Shown here: in pieces, positions 1 to 59,918 of the stretch | Position numbering within the stretch: the stretch's first letter is position 1 | Layout of the letters: each line of letters starts with the position of its first letter | Source of the DNA: Mustelus asterias | Taxonomy: Eukaryota | DNA length: 64,000 nucleotides | Direction: 5' to 3' | Assembly: GCF_964213995.1 (NCBI RefSeq) | Contig: NW_027590141.1 | Location: 682,001-746,000 of the forward strand | Translations under genes and position numbers: made by a program | Notes under the pieces: model-generated | What the model saw: only the letters and a program-made list of their open reading frames with translations | Database searches by the model: none | Told to the model about the DNA's origin: nothing

Positions 1-1019
1 TGTCTCAGCAGATGGGATGACTGAGTGAATCCCTTCCCACACACAGAGCAGGAGAACGGTTTCTCCCCGGTGTGAATGCGCCGGTGTTTCAGCAGACTGG
101 ATGAATCACTGAATCCCTTCCCACACTCCGAGCAGCCGAGCGGCCTCTCCCCAGTGTGAATTCTCTGGTGTACGGTGAGCTGAGATGATTTCCTGAATCC
201 AGTCCCACAACGAGAGCATCTGAACGGTCTCTCGTCAGTGTGAATACGTTGATGGGTCACCAGTTCCCCAGAACTTTTAAAGCACTTCCCACAATCCAGG
301 CATTTAAATGGTCTCTCGTCAGAGTGAACCCGTTGATGGGATGTTAGTTCCACAGAACTTTTAAAGCACTTCTCACAGTTCAGGCATTTAAAAGGTCTCT
401 CATCAGTGTGAACTCGCTGATGTTTCAGTAGGTGAGATGACTGAGTGAATCCCTTCCCACACACAGAGCAGGTAAATGGTTTCTCCCCAGTGTGGATTCG
501 CTGGTGTTTCAGCAGATCAGATAACTGAATGAATCCATTCCCACACTCGGAGCAGGTAAATGATCTCTCTCCAGTGTGAATTCGCTGATGTGTCATCAGG
601 TGGGATGACTGAGTGAATCCCTTCCAACACACAGAGCAGGTGAATGGCCTTTCCCCAGTGTGACCACGTTGGTGTCCTAACAGATTGGATAACTGAGTGA
701 ATCCCTTCCCACGCTCAGAACATGTGAATGGTCTCTCCCCATTGTGATCTCGCTGGTGTTTTAGCAGACTGGATGACTGAGTGAATCCCTTCCCACACTG
801 AGGGCAGGTGAATGGTCTCTCCCCAGTGTGACTGCGTCGATGAGTTTCCAGGTCAGATGGATAACTAAACGCTTTCCCACAATCCCCACATTTCCACAGC
901 TTCTCCCCAGTGTGACTGTGCTTGTGTCTCGACAGGCTGGATGATCGACTGAAGCCTTGTCCACACACACAACACGTGTATGGTTTCTCCTCACTGTGAA
1001 CAGTGCTTTTTCCTTCCAT
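1..1019 (-). CDS. C2H2 zinc-finger protein (MEGK-type), about 12 fingers, runs off the window start
   Basis: Manual translation from ATG 1019: [70 protein letters not shown]...; 84-nt periodicity down to base 1; putative acceptor tttcacAG at 1129-1130. Confidence 0.85.
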
Positions 1020-1189
1020 ATTTAATATTCAATGATATTCAAGTTACGATAAATGATACACCTCTGTCAGCTCCTGGTGTGATGTTTGGTTTCAGTTTCC
1101 TGACTGTAAATCCTCCTCTTCTAAAACCCTGTGAAATTGATTTAAAACAAAAACACAGAAGTGAGAGAGAACCCACAAAAACTCAAAGG

Positions 1190-1330
1190 CAGCTTGTGAA
1201 ATTGAGCTGAATGAATCTGGTAATTTGTCTGATACTAATGAACAGTGCTGGATTATCATAAAAACCCAACTGATTCACTAATGTCCATCAGGGAAAGGAA
1301 CCTACCACCCAGTCTGGGTCTGTACAGACT
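1190..1330 (+). mobile_element. Old tRNA-SINE central-domain fragment in ZNF intron (homologs at about 13280-13430 and 7540-7670)
   Basis: aaaaacccaactgattcactaatgtccatcagggaaaggaacc resembles the core of the SINE at 11135-11430. Confidence 0.5.
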
Positions 1331-1571
1331 CAGGCCTCTACTTAAGGAGAGTTCAAGACAGTGGGAGAGAACGGGGAGTAATGCAAGAGGTGAGGTTGTG
1401 GGGGGATGGGGGAGGTGCTGGTGATGGCAGGAGGAGAGGGATTTTACACATCTATAACTCAGCTGGAGCTTTGACAGAATCTCCCAAACCCTCAACTTCC
1501 ACCACCTGGAAGGACCAGGATCACAAGTGTGAATGAACACCTCGAAATTCACCTTCAAGTCTCACACACTT

Positions 1572-1650
1572 GGGGATTTTCACAGTAACTTCATCGCAGT
1601 GTTAATATAAACCTACTCGTGACATGATAAACTTTTTAAAAAAACTTTAA
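1572..1650 (+). mobile_element. Solo 3' tail of a second SINE family (also 18541-18605 and 55321-55393)
   Basis: tttcacagtaacttcat(t/c)gcagtgttaat...gtgac...ataaacttt is shared by three loci. Confidence 0.55.
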
Positions 1651-1889
1651 ACACACTGTTCTGACTTGTCTGCCATCCAGTCCTGGATGAACAGATATTT
1701 TATATATTGGGAAGACTGAAGTCACTGGTTTCAGTCTTTGCTACAAACTTCACTCCCCAGCCACCGACTCCATCTCTCTCCCTGATAATTGTCCGAGGCT
1801 GAACATGATTGTTCACAACCATGGTGACATGTTTCACCTCAAGAATTAGGAGTCGGCCATTCGGTCCATCAGGTCTTTCACCTCTGTCA

Positions 1890-2008
1890 CTGTTTCAAGT
1901 CTGGATGACCGTTCTCCAAACAGTCATTCAGACTCGAAACGTTGGCTCTATTCTCTCTCCAAAGATGCTGTCAGACATGCTGAGATTTTCCAGCACTTTG
2001 TTTTTTGT
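1890..2008 (+). mobile_element. Penelope-like family B pLTR fragment with short inverted piece
   Basis: gactcgaaacgttggctctattctctctcc...gatgctgtcagac...gctgagattttccagca; reverse complement of the copies at 23305, 32805, 35898 and 44905. Confidence 0.6.
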
Positions 2009-2199
2009 TAAACATTCACTTGATTGCAGTTTGCTGTGGGTAAATCCTCCCCTTTTAACCCATGTAAAATAAGTTTCCAAAACCCATCACTCTCAGTCCA
2101 GGATAGAAATTCACAACATTGTGTCTGCCTGCTTTCCGGCTCAGGATTACTTAAGCTGGGACACATTTTCATTGGAAGCAGATGAGAAAATGTTCACTA

Positions 2200-3887: not shown

Positions 3888-4394
3888 TCAATAACTGGGG
3901 AATCTGCCTCCAGAAGACTTGTGAACTCGCTGGTGTCTCATTAGGTTTTGTGACTGAGTGAATCTGTTCCCACATATGGAGCAGGTGAACGGCCTCTCCC
4001 CGGTGTGAACTCGCTGGTGTATCAGGAGATCAGATGAGTTAGTGAATCCCTTCCCACACACGGAGCAGGTGAAAGGCCTTTCCCCAGTGTGAGCACGCTT
4101 GTGTTTCAGCAGGTGAGATGAACTGCTGAATCCCTTCATACACACAGAGCAGGTGAATGGCCGCTCCCCAGTGTGAAGTCGCTGGTGAGTGCGAAGGTTG
4201 AACATTCGACTAAAACTCTTTCCACACACGGTGCAGATGAACAGACTCTTCCCAGTGTGGCTGCGCTGATGAGCTTCCAGCTGGGATGGAGAACTGAATT
4301 CCTTCCCACAGTCCCCACATTTCCATGGGTTCTCTATGGTGTAGATGTCCTCGTGTCTCTCCAGGTTGGATGATTTAGTGTGTGTATATTTCAA
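3888..4394 (-). CDS. C2H2 zinc-finger ORF, 5 fingers; canonical ATG mutated to ATA (possible pseudogene)
   Basis: [28 protein letters not shown] plus 4 fingers with TGERPF-type linkers; acceptor tttacAG near 4401. Confidence 0.65.
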
Positions 4395-5639: not shown

Positions 5640-6140
5640 GACAAAGGACTCTCGCTCCCGAGGAGAACAAAGGAATTGCGCATGCTCCACATTCAGATCG
5701 CGTGTCCGGCCTCATCAGCCTGACCGGACTGCGCATGTGCCAGATCACAATGACGGCAGCTCCGGACCAATAGGAGGAGGAGGGCGGGTCTGGAGGACCG
5801 CGGGGGAGCAGTTGGTCCTCCAACCATTCAGGGTGAAAGAGGGGCTCCGACTGAAGCATGCGCATTACGGGTAATGGCGACGGCGAATGCTTATTACCTG
5901 GGATCCATAATTTGTCAGCGGAAAATCGCCGATCGGTGGGTACGATTGAACCGGCGAGTGGACGGGAAGGCTTCGTAAACAGGTTGTGCGGATCTGTGAA
6001 CTCCCCCCAAAATTCTCCGGTTACATCGAGCGGGTCAAAGATCCCTGAGACCGGCCCGTGCGTTAACGGCCTCCATCTTTATTGGGGGCAATGTGCGGCA
6101 GTGCGCATGGGTGATCGCCATCTTTGTAGGGGGCAATATT
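5640..6140. promoter_or_regulatory. CpG-rich, probably bidirectional promoter between ZNF 3888(-) and 7818(+)
   Basis: NRF1-like TGCGCATG repeats, CCAAT 5767, GC box, YY1-like AATGGCG and CGCCATCTT; paralogous to 56800-57320. Confidence 0.65.
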
Positions 6141-6259
6141 GTCAATGACTGGGAGGGGCTTGTTCCCCATTGTTCAGAATGGAGACAACTTGTCCATCAA
6201 ACTGCATCAACCCTCTGAGTCCCAATGTCTTGTTGATGAGGCAGAGCGGTGGCAGAGAA

Positions 6260-7290: not shown

Positions 7291-7817
7291 CTAAATGGAG
7301 GGAATTTCTGTGCATCCAGAATAAGATGCCAGATAAGTCAGGGTGATGTGTGACTTGAAGGGAAATTTGGAGGGATGATGTTCACATACACCGACTACCC
7401 TGGTCCTCCTCGGTGCTGGAGGTTGGTTTATTTGTAAGTAAATAAAATTCCCTCCCGTCACCCCATGCCGCTCCACTTCTCACCCTCTCCCTCCCCTCCC
7501 ATAGAGAAGAGCCTGGTGTAAGTCCAGACAAGGTGGTAGGTTCCCCTACCAGTGAACCAGTTGAGTTTTTCACAACAATGTCAGTTTTCATGGTCACATT
7601 TTTCTCGTATCTGCCCCACAAATGACCAAATTTGTTCAGCTCAATTTCACAGCCTGCTTTTGTGGCTTGTCTCTCATTCCCTTTTCTCTCTTTTGAAATA
7701 ATTTCACATGGCAATTGGAAGGAAGGATTTGCAGTTGGAAAACTCAAACTAAACATCCCATCAGAATCTGATGGAGTCACTCAATTTATCCAAACCTGAA
7801 ATCATTGGGTTGTAAAC

Positions 7818-8700
7818 ATGGAAGGAGAAAGTACCATTCACTGTGGGGAGAAACCGTACATGTGTTGTGTGGAAACTCATCAGTGCGTTCCCACTGGGGA
7901 GAGGCCATTTACCTGCACCGAGTGTGGGAAGAGCTTCGCAAATTCAACCAACCTGCTGAGACACCAGCTCGTTCACACCGGGGAGAGGCCGTTCACTTGC
8001 ACTGAATGTGGGAAGGGATTCACTCATTCATCATATCTGTTGAGACACCAACCAGTTCACACTGCAGAGAGACCTTTTAAATACACAGACTGTGGGAAAG
8101 GCTACAAAAGTTCTGGGGAACCAATACGCCATCAACATGTTTCACACTGACACGAGACCGTTCTCACTGTGGGAGTAGGTTCACACAATCATCCGACCTC
8201 ACTGTACACCAGTGGATTCACACTGGGGAGAGGCCGATCACCTGCAAAGAGTGTGGGAAGGGATTTGCTCAGATGTCCACTCTGCTGACACACCAGTGGA
8301 TTCACACTGGGAAGAGACCATTCACCTGCCCTGTGTGTGGGAAGGGATTCATTAATTCATCCAACTTGCTGAGGCACCAACACGTTCACACTGGGGAGAG
8401 GCCGTTCACTTGCACGGAGTGTGGGAAGGGATTCACTAATTCATCCCACCTGCTGACGCACCAGCAAGTTCACACTGACGAGATTGAACTGCGGGAAGTG
8501 CAACAAAAGTTCCAGGGAACTGCTGTCCCATCAACAAATCCACACTGACTAGAGATGATTCAAGTGTTGTCATTTTTGGTCTGAGTTCAGGTAATCTCAT
8601 CTCACTGTACACCAGTGCATTGACACTGAGGAGAGAATGTTCACTTCCTCTGAATGTGGGAAAGGAGTCACTCATTCGTCTCATCCACTGAGACCCAGTG
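7818..8700 (+). pseudogene. Frameshifted C2H2 ZNF pseudogene (MEGE-type)
   Basis: Finger repeats split across ORFs 7818-8150 and 8273-8548, with deletions, stops and lost Cys residues. Confidence 0.8.
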
Positions 8701-9860: not shown

Positions 9861-9871
9861 TTCATCTCTAC

Positions 9872-12257: not shown

Positions 12258-13100
12258 TTACTTGTGAACTCGCTGGTGCCTCAGCAGTGTGGATGAACGA
12301 CTGAATCTCTTTCCACACACTGAGCAAGGAAATGGCCTCTCCCCGGTGTGAACTCGCTGGTGTGTCAGCAGGGTGGACGACTGAGTGAATCCCTTCCCAC
12401 ACACTGAGCAGATGAACGGCCTCTCCCCAGTGTGACTCCTTTGGTGATTAAGTAGGTTGGACATCCAAGTGAAGCCTTTGCCACAGAAAAAGCAGGTGAA
12501 GGGCCTCTCCCTGGTGTGAGTGAGTTGGTGCATCAGCAGATCCATCTGGCTTTCAAAGTACTTCTCACAGTCAGGACATTTAAACAGTCTCTTATCAGTA
12601 TGAACAAGTTGGTGTGTCAGTAGGTCGAATGAACGGGTAAATCCCTTCCCACACACGGAGCAGGGGAACAGTCTCTCCCCAGTGTGAGTGCGTTTATGGT
12701 TCAACAGATCATTTTTCCTTTTATAGTTTTTCTCACAGTCAGAGCATTGGAAAGGTCTCTCCTCACTGTGGATTCGATGGTGTGACAGGAGGTGGGATGA
12801 GTTTGTGAAGTCTTTCCCACAGACGGAGCAGGTGAATGGTCTCTCCCCAGTGTGAACACGCCGGTGTCTTAGAAGGTGGGATGATTTAGTGAATCCTTTC
12901 TGACACACAGAGCAAGTGAATGGCCTCTCCCGTGTGACTGCGGTGATGAATATGTCACTCAGATGGGTAATCAAATCCCTTCCCACAGTCTCCACATTTC
13001 CACGGTTTCTCCCCAGTGGGACAGCACTTGTGTTTTGACAGGTTTGATGAGCGACTGAAACCTCGTCCACACACAGAACATGTAAACACCTTCTCCCCAT
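12258..13100 (-). CDS. C2H2 zinc-finger ORF, 8 fingers, entered from a shifted-frame ATG (ancestral ATG 13125 meets a premature stop)
   Basis: 280-aa ORF with 8 intact fingers ending HQRVHK*; ancestral frame reads MESKSTIH...GFDYPSE*. Confidence 0.65.
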
Positions 13101-13655
13101 TGTGAATGGTGCTTTTTGATTCCATGTTCAGAAGCCGATGATGTTCAGGCCCTGATGAATTGGGTGTCTGTCAGATCCTGATGTGATGTTTGATCTGAGT
13201 TTCCCACCTACAAATCATCCTCTTCTAATATGCTGTAAAATTAATTCAAAAAGGAGAAAAAAACAGTGATAAACACAAAGGTAGGTTGTGAAATTGAGCT
13301 GAATGAATCCGGTAATTTGTGGAGCCGGCACAAGGAAAGAGTGACCACGAAAGCTGCTGGATTGTGATTAAAAACTCAAATGGTTTGTTAATGTCCTTCA
13401 ATTCAGGAAACCTGCCACCCAGTCCAGATCTACACAAGAATTCAACCTTAATGGGAGGAGAAAGATAGAGATGAAACAGGGAGGGAATGAACGGTAAGGA
13501 CTTTATACATCGACAACTGGACAAGAACTTTGACAGAACCTGCCAAACCACAACCTTCACCAACTCAAAGGACGCAGGAAAACTATCACCTCCAAATGTC
13601 GCTTTCAATCTCAAAACAACTTGTAATCCTGAGGTAACCTGTAACCTCCTGCATT

Positions 13656-20725: not shown

Positions 20726-21369
20726 GTATAGACTGTCTGGCAGCCTGCATGGAGATTTTCAGCTCTCTGTGTCCAGGACAGGAAGCAGTGAGCATGGATC
20801 TGTCAATCAGCCTCAATCAGCACCTTCAGGAGAATTGAAAGGGTGAATATTAGATACAGCAGAGTGAGAATGGAGGGAGAGTGTGTGGGATGGAGATTTA
20901 CAGCTTTTGGGGAATGAGAGAGGAAAGAATGTTCCATAGAAACTAGAATTGTCTGCTCTGAATTTCTATCCTGTACTGACACTGATGACTTTTGTAAACA
21001 CCTTTTACAGGCTATCAGAAGGTGAGGGTTTACAGACAGAAATCTCAAACCAAACATCACGTCAACATCTGACAGAGTCACTCAATTCATCGGGACCTGA
21101 ATATCATCGGCCTTTGAATCTAGAAGGAGAAATGTTTCTCTGCTCTGTCTGCTTCAGGAGATTTTAAACATCAGTGTGACTGGAAAGCACTGAGACATAC
21201 ACACCCGGGTGAGAGTGTTCCAGTGCACTGCGTGTGGAAAACACTTCAGTTGCACAGCCTGAAAAAACATCGCAGCATTCACAGCGGGGAGAGACTGTAC
21301 CCGTGTTCTGTGTGTGGATGAGGTTTCAACTGATTGTCCGACCTGGAGAGTCACAAGGACACCTGCACC

Positions 21370-21960
21370 ATGGAGAAACGGTGGAAATGTGGGGACTGTG
21401 GGAAGGGATTTAGATACCCTTCTCACCTGGAAACCCATCGACGCAGCCACACTGGGGAGAGACCGTTCACCTGTTCTCAGTGTGGGAATGGATTCAGTCG
21501 ATTATCCACTCTGCAGACACACCAGCGAGTTCACAATGAGGAAAGGCCATTCATCTGCTTTCATTGTGGGAAGAGATTCACTCAGTCATCTGCCCTGCAG
21601 ACACACCAGCGAGTTCACAATGAGGAGAGACCATTCATCTGCTCTCAGTGTGGGAAGGGATTCAGTCAGTCATCCAGCCTGCGGACACACCAGCGAGTTC
21701 ACACTAGGGAGAGGCCGTTTATCTGCTCTCAGTGTGGGAATGGGTTCACTCAGTTATCCCATCTGAAGACACACCAACGGTTTCACACTGGGGAGAGGCC
21801 GTTCACCTGCCCTCAGTGCGAGAAGGGATTTGCTCAGTTATCCACTCTTCAGACACACCAGCGAGTTCACACCAAGGAGAGACCGTTCACCTGCTCTCAG
21901 TGTGGGAAAGGATTCACTCAGTTATCCAACCTGCGGAGACACCAGCGAGTTCACATGTGA
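21370..21960 (+). CDS. C2H2 zinc-finger protein, 7 fingers, 196 aa
   Basis: ACCATGG start, [10 protein letters not shown]...HQRVHM*; putative upstream intron from GTGAGC near 20788 to ttttacAG 21010. Confidence 0.85.
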
Positions 21961-26683: not shown

Positions 26684-26974
26684 ATGTTATCCCCACAGCT
26701 TTTATTTGTTGCAATAACCTTTGATGTGGTACCTTATCAAATGCCATCTGGAAATCTAAGTGCATTAAAATGTACTTCAGGGAAGGAAATCTGCCATACT
26801 TACTGGGCCTGTTCTACATGTGACTCGAGAGCCACAGCAATGTGTTTGACTCGCAAATGTCCTCCAAGGGTTTCAAGGGATGGGCAATAAATGTTACCCC
26901 AATAAATGTTGGCCAGCCAGGGACGTGTCCCACAAATGAATAAAAATGTGTGGAATGTACAGACTGGGGAACAA

Positions 26975-27350
26975 TGGGTGGGGGCGGGGCTCCCGGGTCC
27001 GTGCGCCTGAACCCGGAGACGTCACCGCGAAGCAGAGTGATTGCTATTGGCTGATTCAGGCAGGGCTCCATTGTGCCGTCACAATGACTTAGAGGGGCGT
27101 TCCCAGCACACAGTGTCCCATTGGCAGCAATATCACTGGTTACAGAAGCAGCACACTGCGGATTAGACACCAGCTCAGCGCGGCTGGCGGTCAAAGCCCC
27201 GCCCACCCCCACGTGGGCTCGGGTTCCGCCCTCTCATTATCTATATGCGGCAGATTGACCAATGGCAACGTGTGGAGGACCGGATGGGCGCTGGTCCTCC
27301 AGCCAATCAGAGTCCGGGCCTTGTATCAATGGCCGCGTGGAGCTTCCTGT
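26975..27350. promoter_or_regulatory. CpG-rich promoter upstream of ZNF 28995(+)
   Basis: GC boxes, GACGTCAC, three CCAAT/ATTGG boxes, TGGAGGACC/GGTCCTCCA palindrome. Confidence 0.65.
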
Positions 27351-28994: not shown

Positions 28995-30377
28995 TTGTTT
29001 AACCTGGAGAGTCACAAGGACACCCGCACCAGGAAGAAACTGTGGAAATGTGGGGACTGTGGGAAGGGATTCAGTTTCCCATCTCAGCTGGAAACACATC
29101 GACACAATCACACTGGGGAGCGGCCATTCACCTGCCCTGTGTGTGGGAAGGGATTCACTCGGTCATCCAATCTGCTGAGTCACAATCTCACTCATACCAA
29201 TGAGAGACCCTTTAAATGCTCTGACTGTGGGACTGGTTTCAAAAGGTCTCAGGATCTGGTGTCCCACCAGCGCATTCACACCGGGGAGAGACCGTTCAGC
29301 TGCTCTCACTGCCCAAAGAGGTTTAGAAGGTCATCCCACCTGCTGTCACACCAGCGCATTCACACTGAGGGGGGACTGTTTAGCTGCTCTCACTGCACAA
29401 AGCAGTTTCAAACATCATCCAACCTGCGGAAACACCAGCAAGTTCACACCGAGGAGTGGCCGTTCACCTGCTCTGTGTGTGGGAAGAGATTCACTCTGTC
29501 ATCCAATCTGCTGAGACACCAGCAAGTTCACACTGGGGAGAGACCGTTCACCTGCTCCGAGTGTGGGAGCAGATTCACTCGGTCATCCAGCCTGCAGAGA
29601 CACAACGTCATTCACAACAGCGAGAGACCCTTTAAATGCTCTGACTGTGGGAGCGGATTCAAAAGGTCTCAGGATCTGATGGATCACCAGCGCATTCACA
29701 CTGTGGAGAGACCGTTCAGCTGCTCTCACTGCTCAAAGACATTTAGAAGATCATCCCACCTGCGGAATCACCAGCGAGTTCACACGAGGGAGCGGCCATT
29801 CACCTGCTCAGTGTGTGGGAGGGGATTCACTCAGTCATCCAGCCTGCAGAGACACAAAGTCACTCACAGCAATGAGCGACCCTTTAAATGCTCTGACTGC
29901 GGGAAAGATTTCAAAAGCTCTCACCAACTGTTGGTCCACCAGTGCATTCACACTGAGGAGAGACCATTCAGCTGCTCTCACTGCACAAAGAGGTTTACAA
30001 CATCATCCTACCTGTGGGAACACCAGCGAGTTCACACCAATGAGCGACCCTTTAAATGCTCTGACTGTGGGATTGGCTTCAAAAGGTCTCAGGATCTGGT
30101 GTCCCACCAGCGCATTCACACTGAGGAGCGACTGTTCACCTGCTCTCACTGCCCAAAGAGCTTCAGAACTTCATCCAACTTGCGGAAACATGAGCGAGTT
30201 CACACCGGAGCGAAACCGTTCACATGCTCTCTGTGTGGGAAGGGATTCAGTGATTCATGCAACCTGCGAGAACACCAGCGAGTTCACACCGGGGAGAGGC
30301 CATTCACCCGCTCTCAGTGTGGGAAAGGATTTAGTGATTCATCCCTCCTGCGGAGACACCAGCGAGTTCACAAGTGA
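28995..30377 (+). CDS. C2H2 zinc-finger ORF, 16 fingers (last has C to R); canonical ATG replaced by AGG, start uncertain
   Basis: 460 open codons; first in-frame ATG lies in finger 8. Confidence 0.7.
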   Translation: MFNLESHKDTRTRKKLWKCGDCGKGFSFPSQLETHRHNHTGERPFTCPVCGKGFTRSSNLLSHNLTHTNERPFKCSDCGTGFKRSQDLVSHQRIHTGERPFSCSHCPKRFRRSSHLLSHQRIHTEGGLFSCSHCTKQFQTSSNLRKHQQVHTEEWPFTCSVCGKRFTLSSNLLRHQQVHTGERPFTCSECGSRFTRSSSLQRHNVIHNSERPFKCSDCGSGFKRSQDLMDHQRIHTVERPFSCSHCSKTFRRSSHLRNHQRVHTRERPFTCSVCGRGFTQSSSLQRHKVTHSNERPFKCSDCGKDFKSSHQLLVHQCIHTEERPFSCSHCTKRFTTSSYLWEHQRVHTNERPFKCSDCGIGFKRSQDLVSHQRIHTEERLFTCSHCPKSFRTSSNLRKHERVHTGAKPFTCSLCGKGFSDSCNLREHQRVHTGERPFTRSQCGKGFSDSSLLRRHQRVHK

Positions 30378-36139: not shown

Positions 36140-38770
36140 CACTCAAGTTCTGATTTTTCACTGGCCATGCTTGGGTCAGTTTATAACCATTAGAATCTAC
36201 TCTCAGAGGTCTGCTTTTCAGTCCAGTGCTACTTGGAGTATACCGCCACTTCACCGACTAACGGGTCACATATCCCTCATAGTTCTTATCACAAATTTGG
36301 GATAAAATAATTTAAACAATGCCTGAGAACGCTTTTTAACTTCTTAACCAACTATCTGCCACTGTTTGTTGATTGGTCAGACCTCCTCTTCACAGATTCG
36401 GGAATCTCAGCCGCTGAACACCAGCCGGTCCTGGAATAAGTTTAATTCTAACTCATTCTGAGTAAATATTCTCACCAGGTTCTCTGTCAGGGCCCTGCTA
36501 AGCAGCTTTAATGGTCCGTGATTGCAGTAACTGAGCAGTCACAGGAATGTGGTCAAGATAGTCCAGTCCCATAATGCCTCACATTCAATCTGCAGTCCTT
36601 CAATTATAACAGAATATGTGGCTGTATGTAGCTGCCTCGGACATGGTCAACCCCAACACTGCCTTCCTGAACTGCTACAATGCCTGAGGTGTACGTACAC
36701 CCACAGTGCTGTTAGGGAGGGATTTCCAGCTACACATTCCAGACTTTCACAGGACTGTAGGTGGATACCAGATTGACATATTCCATTCAACCACTCCCAA
36801 GGTGAGTTATTCCAATTCCTTTATTGTCCAGGACAATATATTCACAATATCTTTAAAACAAAAATTCAACAATCCCATTTGATTTCAGGTATTAACATAT
36901 TCTGTTAGTTTGTTCTTTATTGTCAATGTCAGGCTGGGGTTGTTTCCCCTTGGAGCAAAGGAGGTTGAGGGGAGATTTGATAGAGGTGGACAAGATTCTG
37001 ACAGGTGCAGATAAGGTGGACAAAGAAAAGCTGTTCCCATTAGCTGATGGGACATGGACGAGGGGGGACACAGATTTAAAGTTTCAGGTCAGAGATGTAG
37101 GGGGGGATGTGAGGACGAATATTTTGATGCAGCGAATGGTAATGACCTGGAACTCGCTGCCTACGAGGGTGGAGGAAGTGGAGACAATAAACAATTACAA
37201 AGGAAATTGGATGGGCATCTGGGGGAGTTTCAAACAGAAATGCTGACTAAATATCTCTGAACTTCCTCACACCCGGTCACTCTGTGATCCGTGTGAAATT
37301 TAAAACAAGGTATTCGCAACAAGACTCAAAGAGCATCAGCTCACTGGAGGCAAAGTTGTGAGACCGGCCAGTCCAGCAGAAAGAAACCCTCCGACCCTCC
37401 CCATTGACTAACTGTGAGAATGAACAAAATGCAGTCCTGGATGTAACTGAGAGCAGAAACAATAACAGCAGAATCCAACCCCTGTGAACTTGTTGGTGCC
37501 TCAGCAGCTGTGATGAAATTCTGAACACTTTTTATACACTGAGCAGGTGGACAGTTTCTCCCCAGTGTAACTTCACTGATGTCTCAACAGGTGGGATAAC
37601 TGAGTGAATTCCTTCCCACACTGAGAGCAGGTGAATGGTCTCTCTCCATGTGAATTTGCTGGTGTCTCTGCAGGTTGGATAACTGACTGAAACCCTTCCT
37701 ACACTGAGAGCAAGTAAATGGCCTCTCCCCAGTGTGAACTTGCTGGTGTCTCCGCAGGTGGGATGACTGAGTGAATCTCTTCCCACACTGAGAGCAGGTG
37801 AACGGCCTCTCTCCAGTGTGAATTTGCTGGTGTTTCTGCTGGGTGGATAACTGACTGAAACCCTTCCCACACTGAGAGCAGGTGAATGGCCTCTCCCCAG
37901 TGTGAACTCGCTGGTGTCTCCGCAGGTCGGATGACCAAATGAATCTCTTCCCACACTGAGAGCAGGTGAACATCCTCTCCCCAGTGTGAACTCGCTGGTG
38001 TGCCCGCAGCTCGGATGACCGAGTGAATCTCTTCCCACACTGAGAGCAGGTGAATGGCCTCTCCCCGGTGTGAACGTGCTGGTGTGTCCGCAGGTCGGAT
38101 GACCGAGTGAATCTCTTCCCACACTGAGAGCAGGTGAATGGCCTCTCCCCGGTGTGAACGTGCTGATGTGTCCGCAGGTCGGATGACCGAGTGAATCTCT
38201 TCCCACAACGAGAGCAGATGAATGGCCTCTCCCCAGTATGAATTCGCATGTGTGTCCATAGATTGGATAACTGGTTGAATCCCTTCCTACACCGAGAGCA
38301 GATAAACAGCCTCTCCCCAGTGTGAATTCGCTGGTGTCTCTGCAAAGTGGATAACACAGTGAATCCCTTTCCACACTGAGAGCAGGTGAACGGTCTCTCT
38401 CCAGTGTGAACTCGCTGGTGTGACTGCAGACTGGGCAACAGAGCGAATCCCTCCCCACACTGAGAGCAGATGAATGGCCTCTCCCCAGTGTGGCTGCGCC
38501 GATGAGCATCCAGCAGAGAGGGGGCTCTGTATCTCTTTCCACAGTCTGCACATTTCCATGGTTTCTCCATGGTGCAGGTGTCCTTGCCTCTCCCTTGGGT
38601 GGCCAATCAGTTGACGCCTTGTCCACACACGGAACACGGGTACAGTCTCTCCCCGCTGTGAATGGTGTGATATTTATTCAGGCTGTGTAACTGGTTACAG
38701 CTCTTTAGTCAGTGCACTGGAACACTCTCACTCGGGTGTGGCAGTGTGTTGCTGCTTTTCCACTCACTGA
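36140..38770. repeat. Segmental duplication with 57894-60116 (ZNF gene plus 3' flank)
   Basis: Colinear non-coding flank, including a shared CR1 fragment (36930-37225 and 58687-58980). Confidence 0.9.
37584..38570 (-). CDS. C2H2 zinc-finger protein, 11 fingers, frameshifted C-terminal tail
   Basis: ACCATGG at 38570, [10 protein letters not shown]...; residual dead fingers at about 37480-37650. Confidence 0.8.
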
Positions 38771-39432: not shown

Positions 39433-40194
39433 CTTCACCACAGACTCAAACTTCACACACAGACTCCAACTTCACCCACAGACTCAAACTTCACCACAGA
39501 CTCAAACTTCACCACAGACTCAAACTTCACACACAGACTCAAACTTCACACACAGACTCAAACTTCACCACAGACTCAAACTTCACACACAGACTCAAAC
39601 TTCACACACAGACTCAAACTTCACACACAGACTCAAACTTCACCACAGACTCAAACTTCACACACAGACTCAAACTTCACACACAGACTCAAACTTCACC
39701 ACAGACTCAAACTTCACACACAGACTCAAACTTCACCACAGACTCAAACTTCACCACAGACTCAAACTTCACACACAGACTCAAACTTCACACACAGACT
39801 CAAACTTCACCACAGACTCAAACTTCACCACAGACTCAAACTTCACCACAGACTCAAACTTCACACACAGACTCAAACTTCACACACAGACTCAAACTTC
39901 ACCACAGACTCAAACTTCACCACAGACTCAAACTTCACCACAGACTCAAACTTCACACACAGACTCAAACTTCACCACAGACTCAAACTTCACCACAGAC
40001 TCAAACTTCACACACAGACTCAAACTTCACCACAGACTCAAACTTCACACACAGACTCAAACTTCACACACAGACTCAAACTTCACCACAGACTCAAACT
40101 TCACACACAGACTCAAACTTCACCACAGACTCAAACTTCACCACAGACTCAAACTTCACCACAGACTCAAACTTCACCACAGACTCAAACTTCA
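39433..40194. repeat. Minisatellite, 41 units of 18 or 19 bp
   Basis: cttcaccacagactcaaa and cttcacacacagactcaaa interspersed. Confidence 0.97.
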
Positions 40195-40554
40195 TCCTCT
40201 GGACAACAGCTGTGAGTAAAACACTTTCTTTCTCCCCCTGGGAAATACAGAGAGTTGTGGGACTCTGGAACTGGAATTAGAGACAAATATACTGAGGGGG
40301 AAATGTTTGTGATTTTGTGGAACCTGTTTTTATTGTCTGAGATATTTAAAGACAAATTTATCCTGTCTATTCAAATACTGTTTGTCTCTTAATGCATGAT
40401 TCATTGATGTTGATTTTAATTTGATTATCGCAAGATTTATTAGAAGGTGAAATCTTTCTCATTGCTTTATTCCAATGGGTTTGGCTGGGAATGTTAATTT
40501 TAAGGTTATTGTACTCATAAGGATCATAACAACATTGATACATCTGGAGTTATT

Positions 40555-41883: not shown

Positions 41884-42642
41884 ATGGAGAAACCGTGGAA
41901 ATGTGGGGATTGTGGGAAGGGATTCAAATCCCCGTCTCAGCTGGAAATCCATCGACGCAGTCACACTGGGGAGAGGCCATTCACCTGCTGTGATTGTGGT
42001 AAGGGATTCACTCATTCATCCCACCTGCTGAGACACCAGCGGGTTCACACCAAGGAGAGGCCGTTCACCTGCTCCGAGTGTGGGAAGACCTTCACTACTT
42101 CATCTGATCTGCTGACACATCAGCGAATTCATACTGGGGAAAGGCCATTCACTTGCTCTGAGTGTGAGATGGGATTCAGTCGGTTATCTCACTTGCAGGC
42201 ACACCAGCGAGTTCACACCGGGGAGAAGCCGTTCACCTGCTCTGATTGTGGAAAGGGATTCTCTCACTCCTCCAACCTGCGGATACACCAACGCACTCAC
42301 ACTGGGGAGAGGCCATTCACCTGTACTGAGTGTGGGAAGGCATTCTTTGATTCATCAAGCCTGCGGATACACCAACGAGTTCACACCAAAGAGAGACCGT
42401 TTACCTGCTCTGAGTGTGGAAAGGGATTCAGTCGGTCATCCTTCCTGAAGGCACACCAGCGGATTCACACTGGGGAGTGGCCACCCACCTGCTCTGAGTG
42501 TGGGAAAGCATTCATTGATTCATCCAGCCTGCAGATACACCAGCGTCTTCACACTGCGGAGAGGACATTCACCTGCTCTGAGTGTGGGAAGAGATTCAGT
42601 CGGTCAATCTACCTGCGCAACCACCAGCGAGTTCACGAGTGA
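41884..42642 (+). CDS. C2H2 zinc-finger protein, 9 fingers, 252 aa
   Basis: ACCATGG start [10 protein letters not shown]...HQRVHE*; putative donor GTGAGT 40212 and acceptor AG 41561-41562. Confidence 0.88.
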
Positions 42643-48657: not shown

Positions 48658-49287
48658 TCAATGAATCCTTCTCTTGGAGCAGGTGAATGGGTTCTTCCTG
48701 CTGTGAACTCGCTGGTGTGTCAGCAGGTTGGATGACTGAGTGAATCCCTTCCCACATACGGAGCAAGTGAATGGCCTCTCCCCAGTGTGAACTCGCTGGT
48801 GTGTCAGCAGATGAGGTGACCGTGTGAATCCCTTCCCACACTCAGCGCAGGTGAACAGCCTCTTCCTGGTGTGGCTGCGTTGATGTGTCAGCAGACAGGA
48901 TGACTCAGTGAATGCTTTCCCACACTGAGAGCAGATGAATGGTCTCTCTCCAGTGTGGATTCGCTGGTGTGTCAGCAAGTTGGATAACTGAGTGAATCCT
49001 TTCCCACACTCAGCACAGGTGAACGGTCTCTCCCTGGTGTGAACTCGCTGATGTGTCCGCAGGGTAGATGAATCCTTGAATCCCTTCCCACACTCAGTGC
49101 AGGTGAGTGGTCTCTCCACACTATGAACTCGCTTGTGTGTCTGCAGGTGTGATGACTGAGTGAATCTCTTCCCACACTCAAAGCAGGTAAAAGGTCTTTT
49201 CCCAGTGTGGGTGTGTCGGTGAATTTCCAGTTGAGATGGGGCTTTGAATCCCTTCCCACAATCTCCACATTTCCACGGTTTCTCCAT
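48658..49287 (-). CDS. C2H2 zinc-finger protein, 7 fingers, followed by decayed fingers (about 48455-48680)
   Basis: GCCATGG start [10 protein letters not shown]...; 209-aa ORF. Confidence 0.8.
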
Positions 49288-50435: not shown

Positions 50436-50949
50436 AAGGTATGTCACCACAGTGCTATATTACAAACTTGAAATAACAATAAATGAAATTTATCACAGAA
50501 CCATAAATAACATATCTAATATGTACCTAACAACAAAACTAGACATAACACTGACCTATATAAAATTACTGTCCCACAAAGAATCATAAATTTACATCAG
50601 ATTACACCAAACATGCCAAACCTTACTATATTCCTCTTAAATGTCAACTATCTCCTGAAGAAACCAGCCCTTTAATTGTGAACATTAGGAACGAGACCAT
50701 CCTTTTAGCCAGACAAATAAATGTGTCAAGTTGAGGGAGCAAAAGGATGTCAATGTCTTTCAGAGAGAGAGAGACCTGGGCCAACCTTTCCAGAGTCTGC
50801 AGCCTCCCTGGATTCACTTCGTTTCCCTTCAGTTGCTGCAAGTCCTCAATTTCCCCCAGAGTGAGAAAAGAAATGGAAAAGGGAGAAAGGAAAGTGTTTT
50901 ACTCACAGATGTTGCCTCTTTGGAGGAAGTTTGAGTCCGTCTGAAGCTC

Positions 50950-51170
50950 AACCTGCATTGTCACAAAGACCGCGCTCTGATTGGCTGGAGGACCAAAGTC
51001 CTTCCGGTCTTCCAAGAATTTCCATTGGTCAACACCTCAGCAGGGTTCAGAAACATTTCCGCACATGCGCAGATCCCCCTTTTCCTTGGACCTGCGCAGA
51101 TTCGAGCTTGGGCTATTGAGCGATTTCCCCAACGCGAGGCATTGTGGGGGATGCGGCCGCCATTACTCCT
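50950..51170 (-). promoter_or_regulatory. Promoter of ZNF 49287(-)
   Basis: Two ATTGG boxes, palindrome 50986-51014, GCACATGCGCA, GCCGCCAT; donor ACTCAC 50901-50906. Confidence 0.6.
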
Positions 51171-51406: not shown

Positions 51407-51439
51407 AAACCGAGAGTTAGCACATAAAGTGGAGAAGTA

Positions 51440-53930: not shown

Positions 53931-54939
53931 TCATTTGTGAACTCGCTGGTGTTTCTGCAGGGTGTTCGCACAGGTGAATCCTTTCCCACACACTGAGCAG
54001 ATGAATAACGTCTCCCTGGTGTGACTGTGCTGGTGTTTCAGCCGGAGGGAATGCTGAGTGAATCGCTTCCCACACACAGAGCAGGTAAACGGTCTCTCTC
54101 CAGTGTGAACTCGCTGGTGAATCAGCAGATCCATTTTGCCTTTGAAGCTCTTCTCACAGTCTGAACATTTAAAAGGTCTCGTGTCAGAGTGAACACGTTG
54201 GTGTGAAGTGAGTTGGGCAGACTGGGTGAATCCCTTCCCACACTCGGAGCAGGTGAATGGTCTCACACCAGTGTGAATGCGCTTGTGCCTCAGCAAGGTG
54301 GATGACTGAGTGAATCCCTTCCCACACACAGCAGGTGAATGGCCGCTCCCCAGTGTGAACTCGCTGGTGATCCAACATTTTGCATAACTGAGCGAATGCC
54401 GTCCCGCACCCAGGGCAGGTGAATGGTTTCTCTCCAGTGTGAACTCGCCGGTGTGTCAGAAGGTGGGATAACTGAGTGAATCTCTTCCCACACTCAGTGC
54501 ACATGAATGGTTTCTCTCCAGTGTGAACTCGCCGGTGTGTCAGAAGGTGGGATAACTGAGTGAATCTCTTCCCACACTCAGTGCACATGAATGGTTTCTC
54601 TCCAGTGTGAATTCGCCGGTGTGCCTGCAGGCTGGATAACTGAGTGAATCCCTTCCCGCACTCAGCACAGGCGAACCATCTCTCCCCAGTGTGAAGTCGA
54701 TGGTGTGTCAAAAGATTGTATTTGGTTTTAAAACTCTTCTCACAGTCAGAACATTTAAAAAGTCTCATGTTAGTGTGAACAAGTTGGTGTGCAGTGAGGT
54801 GGGTTAGTCGAGTGAATCCTTTCCCACATTCAGAACAAGTGAACGGCCTCTCCCCAGTGTGACTGCGTTGATGAGTTTCCAGTTCAGAAGGGTAACTGAA
54901 TCCCTTTCCACAGTCCCCACATTTCAACTGTTTCTCCAT
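53931..54939 (-). CDS. C2H2 zinc-finger gene, 12 fingers split by one frameshift near 54330 (7+5)
   Basis: ORFs 54184-54939 ([10 protein letters not shown]) and 53931-54329; 2 nt missing in tgc(tc)tgtgtgt. Confidence 0.75.
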
Positions 54940-55399: not shown

Positions 55400-55916
55400 T
55401 GAGTGAGTACACCCTTTCCCATGTACAGGGCACGTGAATGGTCTCTCACCATTAAGAACTCACTGGTTAATGAATGAATCTCTTCCCACACATAGGGCAC
55501 GTGAATGGCTTCACTCCAGCATGAGTGCGCTGGTGTTCCTGCAGAATATTGTTGCTTTCAAAGCTATTCTCAGAGTTATAAAATTTAAAGATCTCACATC
55601 AGTGTGATGACGCTGGTGTCTACAGATTGGATAAATGAGAAAATCCCATCCCACACATGGTGCAGGTGAACAGTCTTTCCCCAGTGTGAATGCGTCGATG
55701 AATTTCCACACAATGGGTAATTGAATTCTTTCCCACAGTCCCTGCACTGGAACACTCTGTGTGTGTGAGTGTGTGTGTGTGTGTGGTGGTGGTGGTGGGG
55801 GGGAGGGGGGGGGAGGGGGGGGAGGGGGGGGGAGGAGAGCTTGGTGCTTTTCCAGTTACGCTGATGTTTGATTTTTTCCCCACAGACAGAACACATAAAC
55901 ATTTCTCCTTCCACAT
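55400..55916 (-). pseudogene. Decayed C2H2 ZNF pseudogene
   Basis: [33 protein letters not shown] in shifting frames. Confidence 0.75.
55757..55838. repeat. (GT)n-(GGT)n-poly-G low-complexity tract
   Basis: Directly visible; at least four long G runs. Confidence 0.9.
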
Positions 55917-56799
55917 TCAGAAGCCGATGGTATTCAGATCCTGATGAATTGAGTCATTGTCAGATCTTGAAGTGAAGCTTGATTTGAGTTTCCTGTCTGT
56001 TAGTCCTCTACTTGTAACTCTGTAAATCCAGTTCATACAGGTCAGTCCAGGACACAAATTCAGAACAGATAATTCTAGTTCATGGGGAATATTTATTTCT
56101 CTCTTGTTTCCCAAAGCTGCAAATTCCAATTCCACGCACTTTCCCTCAACTCATCACAATGGCTTCACAGTAACCAATACTGAGACTCGCATTGAATTCT
56201 AGATTATTAACTGAATTTAAATTCCACCAGCTATCCTGGTATGTTTTTAACCATTATCCCCAGAACATTATTCTTGTCCTCTGGATTACTGGTGTAGTGC
56301 ACCCCAATGGAGAAGAGGAATGACCCAGAGCTGAATGGTTCCACTCAAGGGTCCGTAATATCCAGGTTCTGATTGATCAAGTGACTCTCTCAGATCTTGA
56401 TGTCTTGTTAGATTTCAGTTTTCTGTGTGTAAATCCTCCCCTTTGAACTCTCTGTAAAAGGAGGTTCCAAAATCCATCAGTGTGAGTGCAGGATAGAAAT
56501 TCCCCCCATTCTCTCCTCCTGCTCCAGGGTCAGTAAAGTGAGTTAAAGATGATTCTCATTCACAAACCCATTGCTGCATTTCCTTCCTGAAGCCACATTT
56601 GTCCACTGGGTCCTGGCCCCGGGAGAAAGCGCTGCAGCTGCCGTTGTGTTGGGTGTTGAGGCGGTGCCGCTAGTTCCTTATTGGGGGTGTTGAAGCCTCC
56701 ACTGGGTGTGTGGAGCCTCCCCTCCCACCCACTGCCCCTAACGCTGCCTCCGCTTATCCGCCTCCTTCCCGCCTGAAGATCAGACAAACAAGCGCCTGT

Positions 56800-57240
56800 C
56801 TTTGGGACATGAACCGCACTGCGCATGCTCAGCGTCACAATGCCCGGGGACTGATTGACGGCAGCTCTGGACCAATAGGAAAAGGGGGCGGGGCTGGAGG
56901 ACCGAGCGGAGCGGCTGGTCCTCCAACCAATCGGAGTGAATGAGGGGCGGGATCTTAAGCATGCGCAGTAGCGCAGTAATGGCGACGGACGGACGGTTTT
57001 TCATCGAATCCACAAACGGTAAAAGGAAAATTGCGGAACGTGGGAACAGTGGATCTGGCGGGTGGGTGAAGAGTTTTTGTAAACATGTTGTTCAGGCCCA
57101 ACCCCAAAAAAGGATTTTATGTTTCGCGCCGAGAGGGGCTGCAAAGTCCAGTATTCGGCTCGGGTTAACGACCGCCATCTTTATTGGGGGCAATGAGCAG
57201 CAGGGCTCATGCCTTCCGCCATCTTTGTAAGGGGCAAAGG
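56800..57240. promoter_or_regulatory. CpG-rich promoter paralogous to 5640-6140
   Basis: TGCGCATG, two CCAAT, GGGGCGGG twice, palindrome 56895-56925, CGCCATCTT twice. Confidence 0.7.
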
Positions 57241-57433
57241 TGTCAATGAGTGGGAGGAGCTTGTTCCCCATTGTTCAGAATGGAGCCAACTTGTCCATCA
57301 AACTGCATCAACCCTCTGCCCCGGGTAATCTGACCCTGGTTTACACAGAGCCAGATGTTTAATTGATCAGGCAAAGTGGCAGCATAACAAGGAAAGGATG
57401 CAAATTCTGCTCTCCGGATCCCATAACCTATAA

Positions 57434-57638
57434 CACCCTGACACTGAAGGGCAATTTATCACGGCCAATCAACCTAACCCGCATCTTTGGAGTGTGGAAG
57501 GAAACCGGAGCACTTGGACGAAACCCACGCAGGCACGGGGAGAATGTGCAAACTCCACACAAACAGTGACACAAGCCAGGAGTCAAATCCAGGTCCCTGG
57601 TGCTGTGAGGCAGCAGTGCTAACCACTGTGTCACGGTG
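57434..57638 (-). mobile_element. HE1-type SINE, 5' half
   Basis: Reverse complement of head and V-domain. Confidence 0.82.
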
Positions 57639-57649
57639 ATACCCCTCCT

Positions 57650-57840
57650 TTTTGTGGCTATGATTCAAATTATGTAAGGCCTGTGCCACTCTTTGAGTGT
57701 GTGGTCACTGGTCAGAAGCTTGATTTGTTGTTTCAATAGCCCATTCATGTGTTCAATCAGGCCAGGCTAGGGGATATGCAATACCCAATGTATTCCATTC
57801 ATTGACTCCTATGTGATACAAATGTCATCCCAAATTGATT
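57650..57840 (-). mobile_element. Retroviral-type integrase fragment (ERV-like)
   Basis: NGIHWVLHIP*PGLIEHMNGLLKQQIK resembles GIxWxxHxPYxPQxxGxIERxNGLLK. Confidence 0.45.
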
Positions 57841-59243
57841 TTTACACGGGGAGATCTTATTCCTTCGCACCTTATCACATTATTATTCTTGATCACTCGA
57901 GCTCTGATTTTTCACTGGCCATGCTTGGGTAGGATTATAACCATTCATTAAAATCTATTCTCAGAGGTCTGGTTTTCAGTCCAGTGCTATTTGGAGTATA
58001 CCGTCACTTCAGTGACTATCAGGTCACAAGTCCCTCACAGTTCTCATCACAAATTTGTGATAAAACAATTTAAACAATGCCTGAAAATGCTTCTTAACTT
58101 CTTAACCAACGACCTATCACTGTTTGTTGATTGGTCAGACCCCTCTTTGTGGATTCAGGTATCTCGGACACTGAACACCAGCCGGTCCTGGAATAAGTTT
58201 AATTCTCACTCATTCTGAGTAAATATTCTCCCCAGATCCTCTGTCAGGACCCTGCTAAGCAGCTTTAATGGTCCGTGATTGCAGAAACTGAGCAGTCACA
58301 GGAATGTGGTCAAGATAGTCCAGTCCCATAATGCCTCACATTCAATCTGCTGTCCTTCAATTATAACAGAATATGTGGCTGTATGTAGCTGCCTCGGCCG
58401 TGGTCAACCCCAACACTGCCTTCCTGAACTGCTACAATGCCTGAGATGTGAGTACACCCACAGTGCTGTTAGGGAGGGATTTCCAGCTACACATTCCACA
58501 CTTTCACTAGAATGTAAGTGGGTTCCCAGGTGATATATTTCATCAACTGCACCCAAGGTGAGTTATTCCAATTCCTTTATTGTCCAGGACAATATATTCA
58601 CAATATCTTTAAAACAGAAATTAAACATTCCCATTTGATTTCAGGTATTAACATATTCTGTTAGTTTGTTCTTTATTGTCGATGTCAGGCTGGGGTTGTT
58701 CCCCATGGAGGAAAGGAGGTTGAGGGGAGATTTGATAGAGGTGGACAAGATTCTGACAGGTTTAGATAAGGTGGACAAAGAAAAGCTGTTCCCATTAGCT
58801 GATGGGACAAGGACGAGGGGGACACAGATTTATGGTTTTGGGTCAGAGATGCGGGGGGGGGGGATGTGAGGAAGAATATTTTGATGCAGCGAATGGTAAT
58901 GACCTGGAACTCGCTGCCTACGAGGGTGGAGGAAATGGAGACAATAAACAATTACAAAGGAAATTGGATGGGCATTTGGGAGGTTTCAAACAGAAATGCT
59001 GACTAAATATCTCTGAACTTCCTAACACCCGGTCACTCTGTGATCCTTGTGAAATCTGAAACCAGGTATTCGCAACAAGGCTCAAAGAGCATCAGCCCAC
59101 TGGGGGCAAAGTCATGAGACCGGCCAGTCCAGCAGAAAGAAACCCTCCGACCCTCCCCATTGACCAACTGTGAGAATGAACAAAATACAGTCCTGGATGT
59201 AATTGAGAGCAGAAACAATAACAGCAGAATCCAACACCTGGAA

Positions 59244-59918
59244 TCACTCGTGAATTCGCTGGTGTCTCAACAGCTGGGATGAAAGACTGAATCTCTTCTC
59301 ACACACAGAGCAGCTGAACGGCCTCTCCCCAGTGTGAATTCCCTGATGTGTCTGCAGGCTGGATAACCGAGAGAATCCCTTTCCACACACAGAGCAAGTG
59401 AACGGTTTCTCCCCAGTGTGAACTCGTTGGTGTCTCTGCTGGCTGGATGAATCACTGAACCGCTTCCCACACTGAGAGCAGGTGAACGGCCTCTCCCCAG
59501 TGTGAACTCGCTGGTGTGTCTGCAGGTGGGATAATCGACTGAATCCCTTCCCACACTGAGAGCAAGTGAACGGCCTCTCCCCAGTGTGAACTCGCTGGTG
59601 TGTCCGCAGGCAGAATAACCGAGAGAATCCCTTCCCACACTGAGAGCAAGTGAACAGCCTCTCCCCAGTGTGAACCCGCTCGTGTGTCCGCAGGCTGGAT
59701 AGCTGAGTGAATCCCTCCCCACACTGAGAGCAGGTGAATGGCCTCTCTCCAGTGTGAACTCGCTGGTGTTTCTGCAGGATGGATAATAGAGTGAATCCCT
59801 TCCCACACTGAGAGCAGGTGAATGGCCTCTCCCCAGTGTGGCTGCGCCGATGAGCTTCCAGCAGAGATGGGACTTTGTATCTCTTCCCACAGTCCACACA
59901 TTTCCATGGTTTCTCCAT
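59244..59918 (-). CDS. C2H2 zinc-finger protein, 8 fingers, 224 aa
   Basis: ACCATGG at 59918, [10 protein letters not shown]...HQRIHE*. Confidence 0.88.

What the first reader, a model, noticed from the sequence alone, without database searches (positions are those of the whole stretch)
1..59918. Finger-only ZNF family with a conserved atypical 'WKCGDC-PS-LE' finger: candidate KRAB-free effector module
Seen: nine ORFs (ATG 1019, where it is finger 2; 3888; 21370; 28995; 38570; 41884; 49287; 54939; 59918) plus the dead frame of 12258 carry [W/L]KC[G/A/V]DCGKx[F/Y]xxPSxL[E/D]xH, with Pro at helix +1 and an acidic residue at +5. The fingers that follow vary in number (4-15) and in contact residues. 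No KRAB, SCAN or BTB sequence is visible. Known: tetrapod KRAB-ZNFs pair a constant effector with variable fingers and target transposons. Inference: this finger may be a protein-binding module of an elasmobranch TE-surveillance system.
Basis: partly seen in the sequence, partly recalled or inferred. Interest (0 to 1): 0.7.

Follow-up and report, generated by a model that had tools for sequence, protein, structure and literature searches.

The report
Shark finger-only genes, specialised first finger
This DNA holds ten copies of a shark gene family, over two thousand strong, whose intact members are predicted to make proteins of zinc fingers alone, led by one unusually fixed finger that likely serves as a handle for a partner protein, while related ray proteins still carry a short motif predicted to bind a gene-silencing protein.

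Summary
The finger is real: 10 copies in the window, 9 matching the full pattern; two of the nine 'ORFs' lack an ATG. The genome holds 2,165 exact ATG-plus-finger starts. Genes have a CCAAT promoter, a tiny first exon and a leader of dead coding sequence (stops in 95 of 99 copies); in most, a new ATG sits in the linker just before this finger. No effector exon can splice in frame through that leader. Selection is split: helix +1/+5 are purified (dN/dS 0.12-0.15, against 2.2-3.5 in the next fingers and 1.0 in a dead leader finger), while -1/+3/+6 change fast. Position -1 avoids polar residues; +3 still looks like a base reader. So it is a specialised, partly DNA-reading first finger, not a constant module; docking is inferred, not shown. 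Predicted proteins of six ray and skate species keep the leader coding and carry a PxVxL (HP1-box-like) motif before it; that motif was not found in this shark. The scan noted this family before on other DNA (8 notes); I found no paper on it, and no note on the ray motif.

The parts
1..1019 (-). Class A gene (Met, one ordinary finger, then W finger at 828-896), cut by the window edge; acceptor-like site near 1128
3888..4337 (-). Class B-type copy, 5 fingers, ATA at the start position (likely pseudogene); W finger 4257-4325
5751..6217 (.). CpG-rich promoter-like element with paired CCAAT boxes, 75% identical to 56856-57318
7800..8545 (+). Broken class A copy without a W finger, frameshifted
12258..13125 (-). 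Dead class A copy; stop inside the W finger (12934-13002), then frameshift
21011..21369 (+). Leader from acceptor-like site to ATG: dead acidic spacer and three dead fingers with stops
21370..21960 (+). Intact class B ORF, 196 aa, 7 fingers; W finger 21382-21450
26966..27346 (+). CpG-rich promoter-like element upstream of the 29031 copy
29031..30377 (+). Open 15-finger frame with AGG at the start position (likely pseudogene); W finger 29043-29111; acceptor-like site near 28678
37584..38570 (-). Class B ORF, 328 aa, 11 fingers then frameshifted tail; W finger 38490-38558; promoter-like DNA abuts a shortened leader (38833-38967)
39433..40211 (+). First-exon region of the 41884 gene, expanded into an 18-19 base tandem repeat of first-exon sequence; donor-like GT at 40212
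41884..42642 (+). Intact class B ORF, 252 aa, 9 fingers; W finger 41896-41964; acceptor-like site near 41563
48658..49287 (-). Class B ORF, 209 aa, 7 fingers; W finger 49207-49275; leader 49288-49714
50907..51060 (-). Promoter-like CCAAT pair and predicted first exon (CCAAT 78 bases before the donor-like GT at 50906; short upstream ATG frame of 17 codons)
54184..54939 (-). Class B ORF, 251 aa, 7 fingers then frameshifted tail; W finger (Leu variant) 54859-54927
55400..56160 (-). Decayed copy with leader, frameshifted W-like helix and broken fingers
56856..57318 (.). CpG-rich promoter-like element with paired CCAAT boxes
59244..59918 (-). Intact class B ORF, 224 aa, 8 fingers; W finger 59838-59906; acceptor-like site near 60264, donor-like GT at 61721

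Best explanation
The window is a slice of a family of over two thousand shark genes predicted to encode zinc fingers only, and their fixed first finger likely works as a partner-binding handle that still touches DNA, while the fast-changing fingers behind it likely choose the targets. Shown: promoter-like element, tiny first exon, dead leader, new start codon in the linker before the finger, purifying selection on W, K, D, Pro+1, Ser+2, Glu+5 and Arg+9, fast change at -2, -1, +3 and +6. Inferred: +1, +5 and +9 form one stripe of the helix (i, i+4, i+8) that is not a base-reading face; an acidic, fixed stripe kept since sharks and rays split is what a binding site for one slowly evolving partner would leave. 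Inferred history: the ancestor had a coding N-terminus (still open in rays, with a PxVxL motif); the shark copies lost it and restarted translation downstream. The partner, repression and transposon targets are untested.
For: Calibrated site test on 59 class B genes not picked by finger DNA, two trees: +1/+5 dN/dS 0.12 and 0.15 (p 4e-5, 2e-4) in the W finger, 2.2-2.7 in finger +1, 2.5-3.5 in finger +2; dead leader finger 1.04 and 0.99 (88 genes agree; 23 class A genes give 0.16 on six diagnostic sites). D/E at +5 in 108 of 113 distinct W fingers, 3 of 931 other fingers; no other finger type tested fixes +5 (entropy 0.47 against 1.8-2.5 in 5 types); R/K at -1 in 0 of 113 against 180 of 931, at +6 in 5 of 113 against 300 of 931. 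Polar or charged residues are selected against at -1 (p 2.5e-4). Mean helix charge -0.6 against +0.8. The same residues are kept in 47 W fingers of other sharks and rays (Pro 94%, Glu 96%). The finger heads 17 of 21 complete arrays in 40 blind 10-kb samples and occurs behind ordinary fingers in 1 of 1,009 positions. Leader closed in 95 of 99 copies with random frame; first exon not frame-conserved. Ray spacer matches the shark leader (best E 4e-14; reversed control 0 hits).
Against: W +3 is the fastest site of the finger (9.8 times the dead-finger rate) and favours polar or charged residues (p 0.004), as a base reader would; 74 different -1/+2/+3/+6 sets among 123 W fingers, against 85 and 94 for the next two. 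dN/dS at -1/+3/+6 is 1.3-1.7, not significantly above 1, so neither reading nor relaxation is decided. A fixed framework with variable contacts is a known pattern of DNA-binding finger lineages (PMC5588721, passages seen). Pro+1 also occurs in fingers of ZFP568 chains in the PDB. Lys, Arg+8/+9 and the linker needed for backbone contact are kept. In one gene (L006) the Pro+1/Glu+5 helix recurs at internal positions. Ray proteins hold both PxVxL and the W finger. Units were picked with a lenient W score (4 of 7 residues, including +1 and +5), which can lower dN there; 17 of 100 leader-anchored units failed it and on inspection were broken copies. Paralog gene conversion violates the tree model, and the leader changes at about half the synonymous rate of the fingers, so it is an imperfect neutral ruler.
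Confidence: 0.4

Rival explanations
1. The W finger is a structural cap and DNA anchor: Trp, Pro+1 (first helix turn) and a Glu+5/Arg+9 salt bridge stabilise a finger that has no neighbour on its N-terminal side; it reads part of a site through +3, and the proteins repress, if at all, by occupying DNA.
For: Fast polar +3; backbone-contact residues kept; i,i+4 spacing of Glu+5 and Arg+9; normal fold predicted (helix 17-28, mean pLDDT 82.9); always at or next to the N-terminus; PMC5588721 (passages) ties non-base-contacting residues to backbone binding.
Against: In class A an ordinary finger comes first and the W finger keeps the same residues; last fingers and other types fix no such set; Pro+1 and Glu+5 offer no phosphate hydrogen bond (inference).
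Confidence: 0.35
2. Founder effect: the finger next to the unique 5' flank escapes shuffling, so its residues are shared by descent and need no special function.
For: Synonymous rate at its Cys/His codons is far lower than in the next fingers (tree length 1.1 against 6.0 and 6.5); dead leader fingers are also widely shared (805 exact 22-base matches).
Against: dN/dS at +1/+5 is 0.12-0.15 while the adjacent dead finger gives 1.0; residues kept across sharks and rays.
Confidence: 0.1
3. A real effector is encoded upstream and joined in frame through an acceptor close to the ATG, skipping the dead leader (for example the 17-codon frame of the first exon).
For: 35 of 42 first-exon elements have an ATG, 23 of them exactly 51 bases before the donor; no donor was found for 62 of 94 units with at least 4 kb upstream, including all 13 class A units; rays have a coding N-terminus.
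Against: 10 of 35 are out of phase 0 and 6 of 35 hold a stop; 81 of 92 class B copies have an in-frame stop in the last 20 codons before the ATG, some 2 codons before it; the last 15 leader codons give dN/dS 0.77, p 0.065; strong start context (A at -3 in 86 of 89, G at +4 in 89 of 89, partly by selection of loci).
Confidence: 0.08

Closest known systems
KRAB zinc-finger genes of tetrapods and lobe-finned fish
   Same: Clustered, fast birth and death, effector-type architecture (upstream exon, spacer, finger exon), fast change at base-contacting sites (dN/dS 1.6-2.2 in finger +1)
   Different: No KRAB in the proteins scanned; KRAB (PF01352) only in mammal and bird hits that lack the W finger; spacer is dead and non-coding here
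FiNZ-ZNF family of cyprinids (Wells et al. 2023, PMC10547256; passages seen)
   Same: Hundreds to thousands of lineage-specific genes, two-exon layout, diversifying contacts
   Different: FiNZ is a 28-residue acidic domain on a coding first exon; here the first exon is not frame-conserved and is cut off from the fingers by stops. The passages searched name no shark or chondrichthyan
PxVxL (HP1 box) proteins such as KAP1/TRIM28 (PMC12126490; passages seen)
   Same: Predicted W-finger proteins of six batoid species carry P-x-V-V-L-R-R-L about 75-90 residues before the finger
   Different: Here the motif would sit directly on a tandem finger protein; binding untested; not found in this shark genome
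C2H2 fingers that bind proteins (Ikaros dimer fingers, FOG, WIZ; recalled, from no call)
   Same: A finger with conserved residues off the base-reading face
   Different: No sequence match shown; the PDB search returned generic tandem fingers

Membership tests
Tandem Krueppel-type C2H2 ZNF | C-x2-C-x12-H-x3-H fingers joined by TGEKP-type linkers | tested here: met
KRAB-ZNF | KRAB domain in frame upstream of the fingers | tested here: not met
   No KRAB in 11 proteins scanned (best 25 families each); leader closed in 95 of 99; no PF01352 in shark or ray hits
KRAB-ZNF | Repression through TRIM28 at transposons | not testable with these tools
   needs cells; TRIM28 was not searched in G000
FiNZ-ZNF | Conserved acidic N-terminal domain on a coding first exon, in frame with the fingers | tested here: not met
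   first-exon frame mixed and stops present; leader closed. No FiNZ profile was run
Arms-race ZNF family | dN/dS above 1 at base-contacting sites | tested here: met
   finger +1: 1.8-2.2, p 0.01-0.03 in class B; finger +2: 1.3-1.6, p 0.04-0.34; W finger 1.3-1.7, not significant; shuffling of fingers can inflate these
Arms-race ZNF family | Binding to transposon sequences | not tested
   no motif prediction or ChIP data
Protein-binding C2H2 finger | Conserved residues outside the base-reading positions | tested here: met
Protein-binding C2H2 finger | Loss of base-reading signature | tested here: inconclusive
   -1 and +6 lack R/K; +3 stays polar and fast
Protein-binding C2H2 finger | A demonstrated partner | not testable with these tools
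   no candidate partner known
HP1-box protein (ray relatives) | PxVxL motif in a conserved, non-finger stretch | tested here: met
   P, V, V, L, R, R, L invariant in 4 of 4 aligned N-termini; fifth and sixth species
HP1-box protein (ray relatives) | Binding to the HP1 chromoshadow dimer | not tested
   no fold or assay run

The most novel reading that the evidence does not exclude
Sharks and rays run a third vertebrate silencing-finger system with no KRAB or FiNZ: the ancestor wired tandem fingers straight to HP1 through a PxVxL exon (kept in rays); sharks dropped that exon, restarted translation inside a linker, and amplified thousands of genes in which the first finger itself recruits the silencing partner.
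Probability: 0.17. Interest if true: 0.82.

Novelty: new variant of a known kind. Interest (0 to 1): 0.5.

Why it matters
How vertebrates without KRAB/TRIM28 aim silencing at transposons is open. This family gives two small, testable handles: a 23-residue finger with a mapped set of fixed residues (Trp, Pro+1, Glu+5, Arg+9) and an 8-residue HP1-box-like motif in ray relatives. It also shows a gene family that expanded to thousands after its N-terminal coding part died. If the first finger is only a structural cap, the family is a very large but ordinary finger-only expansion.

Tried and rejected
RNA: no RNA holder listed. Contigs of 4 runs guessed to be RNA were laid on 48650-51200; none of the 15 joints shown (357 not shown) joined the predicted first exon to the leader; paralogs swamped the tables, so splicing is not shown either way. 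Homodimer of the W finger plus next finger: no answer, score 0.00, alignment not used; no evidence either way. PxVxL exon in G000: one weak hit (E 0.7, with a stop, no fingers in the locus), none with a second query, 13 pattern matches against 23 for the control, none beside fingers or in an open ray-like frame; none in 1.59 Mb of fetched DNA: not found with these queries. Search of representatives with a whole skate protein returned long finger arrays and no further PxVxL protein among 150. L006, with an open leader, showed no upstream coding exon in 7.3 kb. IQ-TREE codon runs gave no readable omega; the first own fit was badly optimised and was redone. Rows dropped: L001-L021 (picked by likeness to the finger) were left out of all counts; units with under 4 fingers or irregular spacing were left out of selection tests (111 of 129 kept). 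Long Heterodontus, Mustelus and Carcharodon proteins with several W fingers look like merged gene models and were not taken as fusions. A W-like finger in Latimeria (internal, no acidic +5) was excluded. No tRNA genes. Literature: 10 searches gave no paper on this family or on a ray PxVxL finger protein; the library lacks most subscription journals, and I opened no supplements (those of PMC10547256 may list shark finger counts).
Full report
Observation. Six-frame translation finds ten arrays that begin with, or have as second finger, a WKCGDC-type finger. All ten carry Pro at helix +1; nine carry Leu-Glu/Asp at +4/+5. Seven of the nine ORFs named have an ATG; the copies at 4337 and 29031 have ATA and AGG there. 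The pair Pro+1 and acidic +5 marks 75 of 84 such fingers and 0 of 694 other fingers of the same ORFs. The window lies at G000:C109:682001-746000 in a 3.68-Gb assembly; homologues name sharks and rays, so the elasmobranch reading holds.

Family size and position. Exact DNA patterns give 2,165 ATG-plus-finger starts, 805 copies of a leader 22-mer, 222 class A starts and 245 first-exon 21-mers, each with 0 for the reversed control; these are matches, not gene counts, and the assembly may hold haplotype duplicates. In 40 blind 10-kb samples the finger heads 17 of 21 complete arrays. Of 100 units found by leader or start DNA alone, 83 have it; the other 17 are broken copies. It was seen behind ordinary fingers in 1 of 1,009 positions, tandemly doubled in a few genes, and as an internal Pro/Glu helix in one gene.

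Gene anatomy. Upstream lie CpG-rich elements with paired CCAAT boxes, a donor-like site about 77 bases after a CCAAT box, 0.7-4.6 kb of spacing, and an acceptor-like site 75-450 bases before the W finger. The splice sites are read from sequence. The stretch from acceptor to finger is dead coding DNA: an acidic spacer plus, in class B, three ruined fingers with stops shared among copies (one stop in 74 of 92). It is closed in the finger frame in 95 of 99 units with an acceptor match (30 of 129 had none within 500 bases), and its length falls in all three frames (28/23/22 in class B). Class B starts at an ATG in the linker position just before the W finger; class A starts one finger earlier. The first exon often has an ATG (35 of 42) opening about 17 codons, but 10 of 35 are off phase and 6 hold stops; it reads as an upstream ORF. 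A donor was located for 32 of 94 units with long flanks and for no class A unit, so unseen exons are not excluded, but they could not fuse through this leader.

Selection. On fixed trees with a codon model of my own (kappa 3), the dead leader finger gives dN/dS 1.00 (88 genes) and 1.04/0.99 (59 genes not picked by finger DNA, trees from whole block or leader only). In the W finger +1/+5 give 0.12-0.15; in the next two fingers 2.2-3.5. W, K, D and Arg+9 give 0.27-0.29. Yet -2, -1, +3 and +6 change 4-10 times faster than the dead finger, dN/dS 1.3-1.7 at -1/+3/+6, not significantly above 1; the same sites in finger +1 give 1.95-2.2 (p 0.01-0.03). Whole-finger values differ little (0.57-0.58 against 0.62-0.79). 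Class A (23 genes) gives 0.16 on six diagnostic sites. Residue classes differ sharply: no Arg or Lys at -1 in 113 distinct W fingers, 84 hydrophobic; 72 hydrophobic at +6. A class model finds selection against polar residues at -1 (p 2.5e-4), for them at +3 (p 0.004), none at +6. Caveats: lenient finger filter, gene conversion and finger shuffling, and a leader that evolves at about half the fingers' synonymous rate.

Relatives. W fingers from Heterodontus, Mustelus, Cetorhinus, Chiloscyllium, Scyliorhinus, Pristiophorus, Mobula, Hypanus, Pristis, Rhinoraja and Amblyraja keep the same residues (47 fingers). No shark or ray hit carries KRAB among its precomputed Pfam domains. Five of 50 W-finger occurrences, all batoid, have P-x-V-V-L-R-R-L 73-87 residues upstream, and a Leucoraja protein shares it. 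The spacer between motif and finger matches the shark leader (96 tblastn hits of 6 ray N-termini on 129 leaders, best E 4e-14, reversed control 0), and one skate alignment places the shark acceptor just after the motif, which suggests an upstream coding exon. PxVxL is the HP1 chromoshadow-binding box (PMC12126490, passages). These are predicted gene models, mostly with two fingers called; I saw no ray DNA, and whether the motif is ancestral or a ray gain is open. It was not found in G000 with three queries.

Mechanism. Shown: finger-only open frames, a specialised first finger, diversifying later fingers. Inferred: the fixed +1/+5/+9 stripe and hairpin residues form a binding surface for a slowly evolving partner (0.40), or stabilise and anchor a terminal finger (0.35); founder effect (0.10) and a hidden effector exon (0.08) fit worse. 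A transposon target rests on analogy with KRAB and FiNZ families (PMC10547256, passages: finger gene number tracks retroelements regardless of accessory domain); it was not tested here.

Comparison and verdict. It works like KRAB- and FiNZ-type families in genomic behaviour but fails their defining domain test. Papers seen: PMC10547256, PMC8455134, PMC11603059, PMC12126490 and PMC5588721 as passages; PMC11620358 as abstract and outline; others as search listings. Ten searches found no description of this family. The scan has eight earlier notes on it; one holds that the first finger still looks like a DNA reader, which my data support for +3 only. A word search found no note on the ray motif. 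New variant of a known kind; interest 0.5.

Noticed in passing
P0047, P0049, P0066, P0085, P0089, P0232: Predicted ray and skate W-finger proteins carry a conserved PxVxL (HP1-box-like) N-terminal motif ahead of a spacer homologous to the dead shark leader.
   Followed up: partly
window 39433-40194: An 18-19 base tandem repeat (41 copies, 96% matches) built from first-exon sequence, directly before the donor of the 41884 gene.
   Followed up: partly
class B leaders, e.g. window 21011-21369: Leaders hold 0-6 upstream ATGs (68 of 73 have at least one) and change at about half the synonymous rate of the fingers with dN/dS 1; possible RNA-level or translational control.
   Followed up: partly
L006 (G000:C11:65346990-65356989): A gene on another large contig with a fully open leader and Pro+1/Glu+5 helices repeated at several internal fingers.
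   Followed up: partly
window 5751-6217, 27250-27346, 50960-51060, 56856-57318; L014, L105, L245: Shared promoter-like element: two CCAAT boxes around a GGAGGACC/GGTCCTCC inverted pair; head-to-head first exons about 470 bases apart in several loci suggest bidirectional use.
   Followed up: no
L004:5467-5563, L018:7512-7596, L088: Tandem duplication of the W finger at the head of the array.
   Followed up: no
window 15660-16226, 18723-19810, 24605-25553, 33968-34924; 62527-63726; 9074-9420 and copies: Fragments that look like CR1-type and Tx1-type LINE reading frames and a SINE-like 340-base repeat in about ten copies fill the introns and spacers (labels from recall, not from a library).
   Followed up: no
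window 36140-38072 and 57894-59840: A 1.95-kb duplication at 89% identity covering the 3' ends of the 38570 and 59918 genes.
   Followed up: no
window 47595-48104 (-): A 170-residue open frame without fingers that resembles a retrotransposon gag-like protein (recall; not searched).
   Followed up: no
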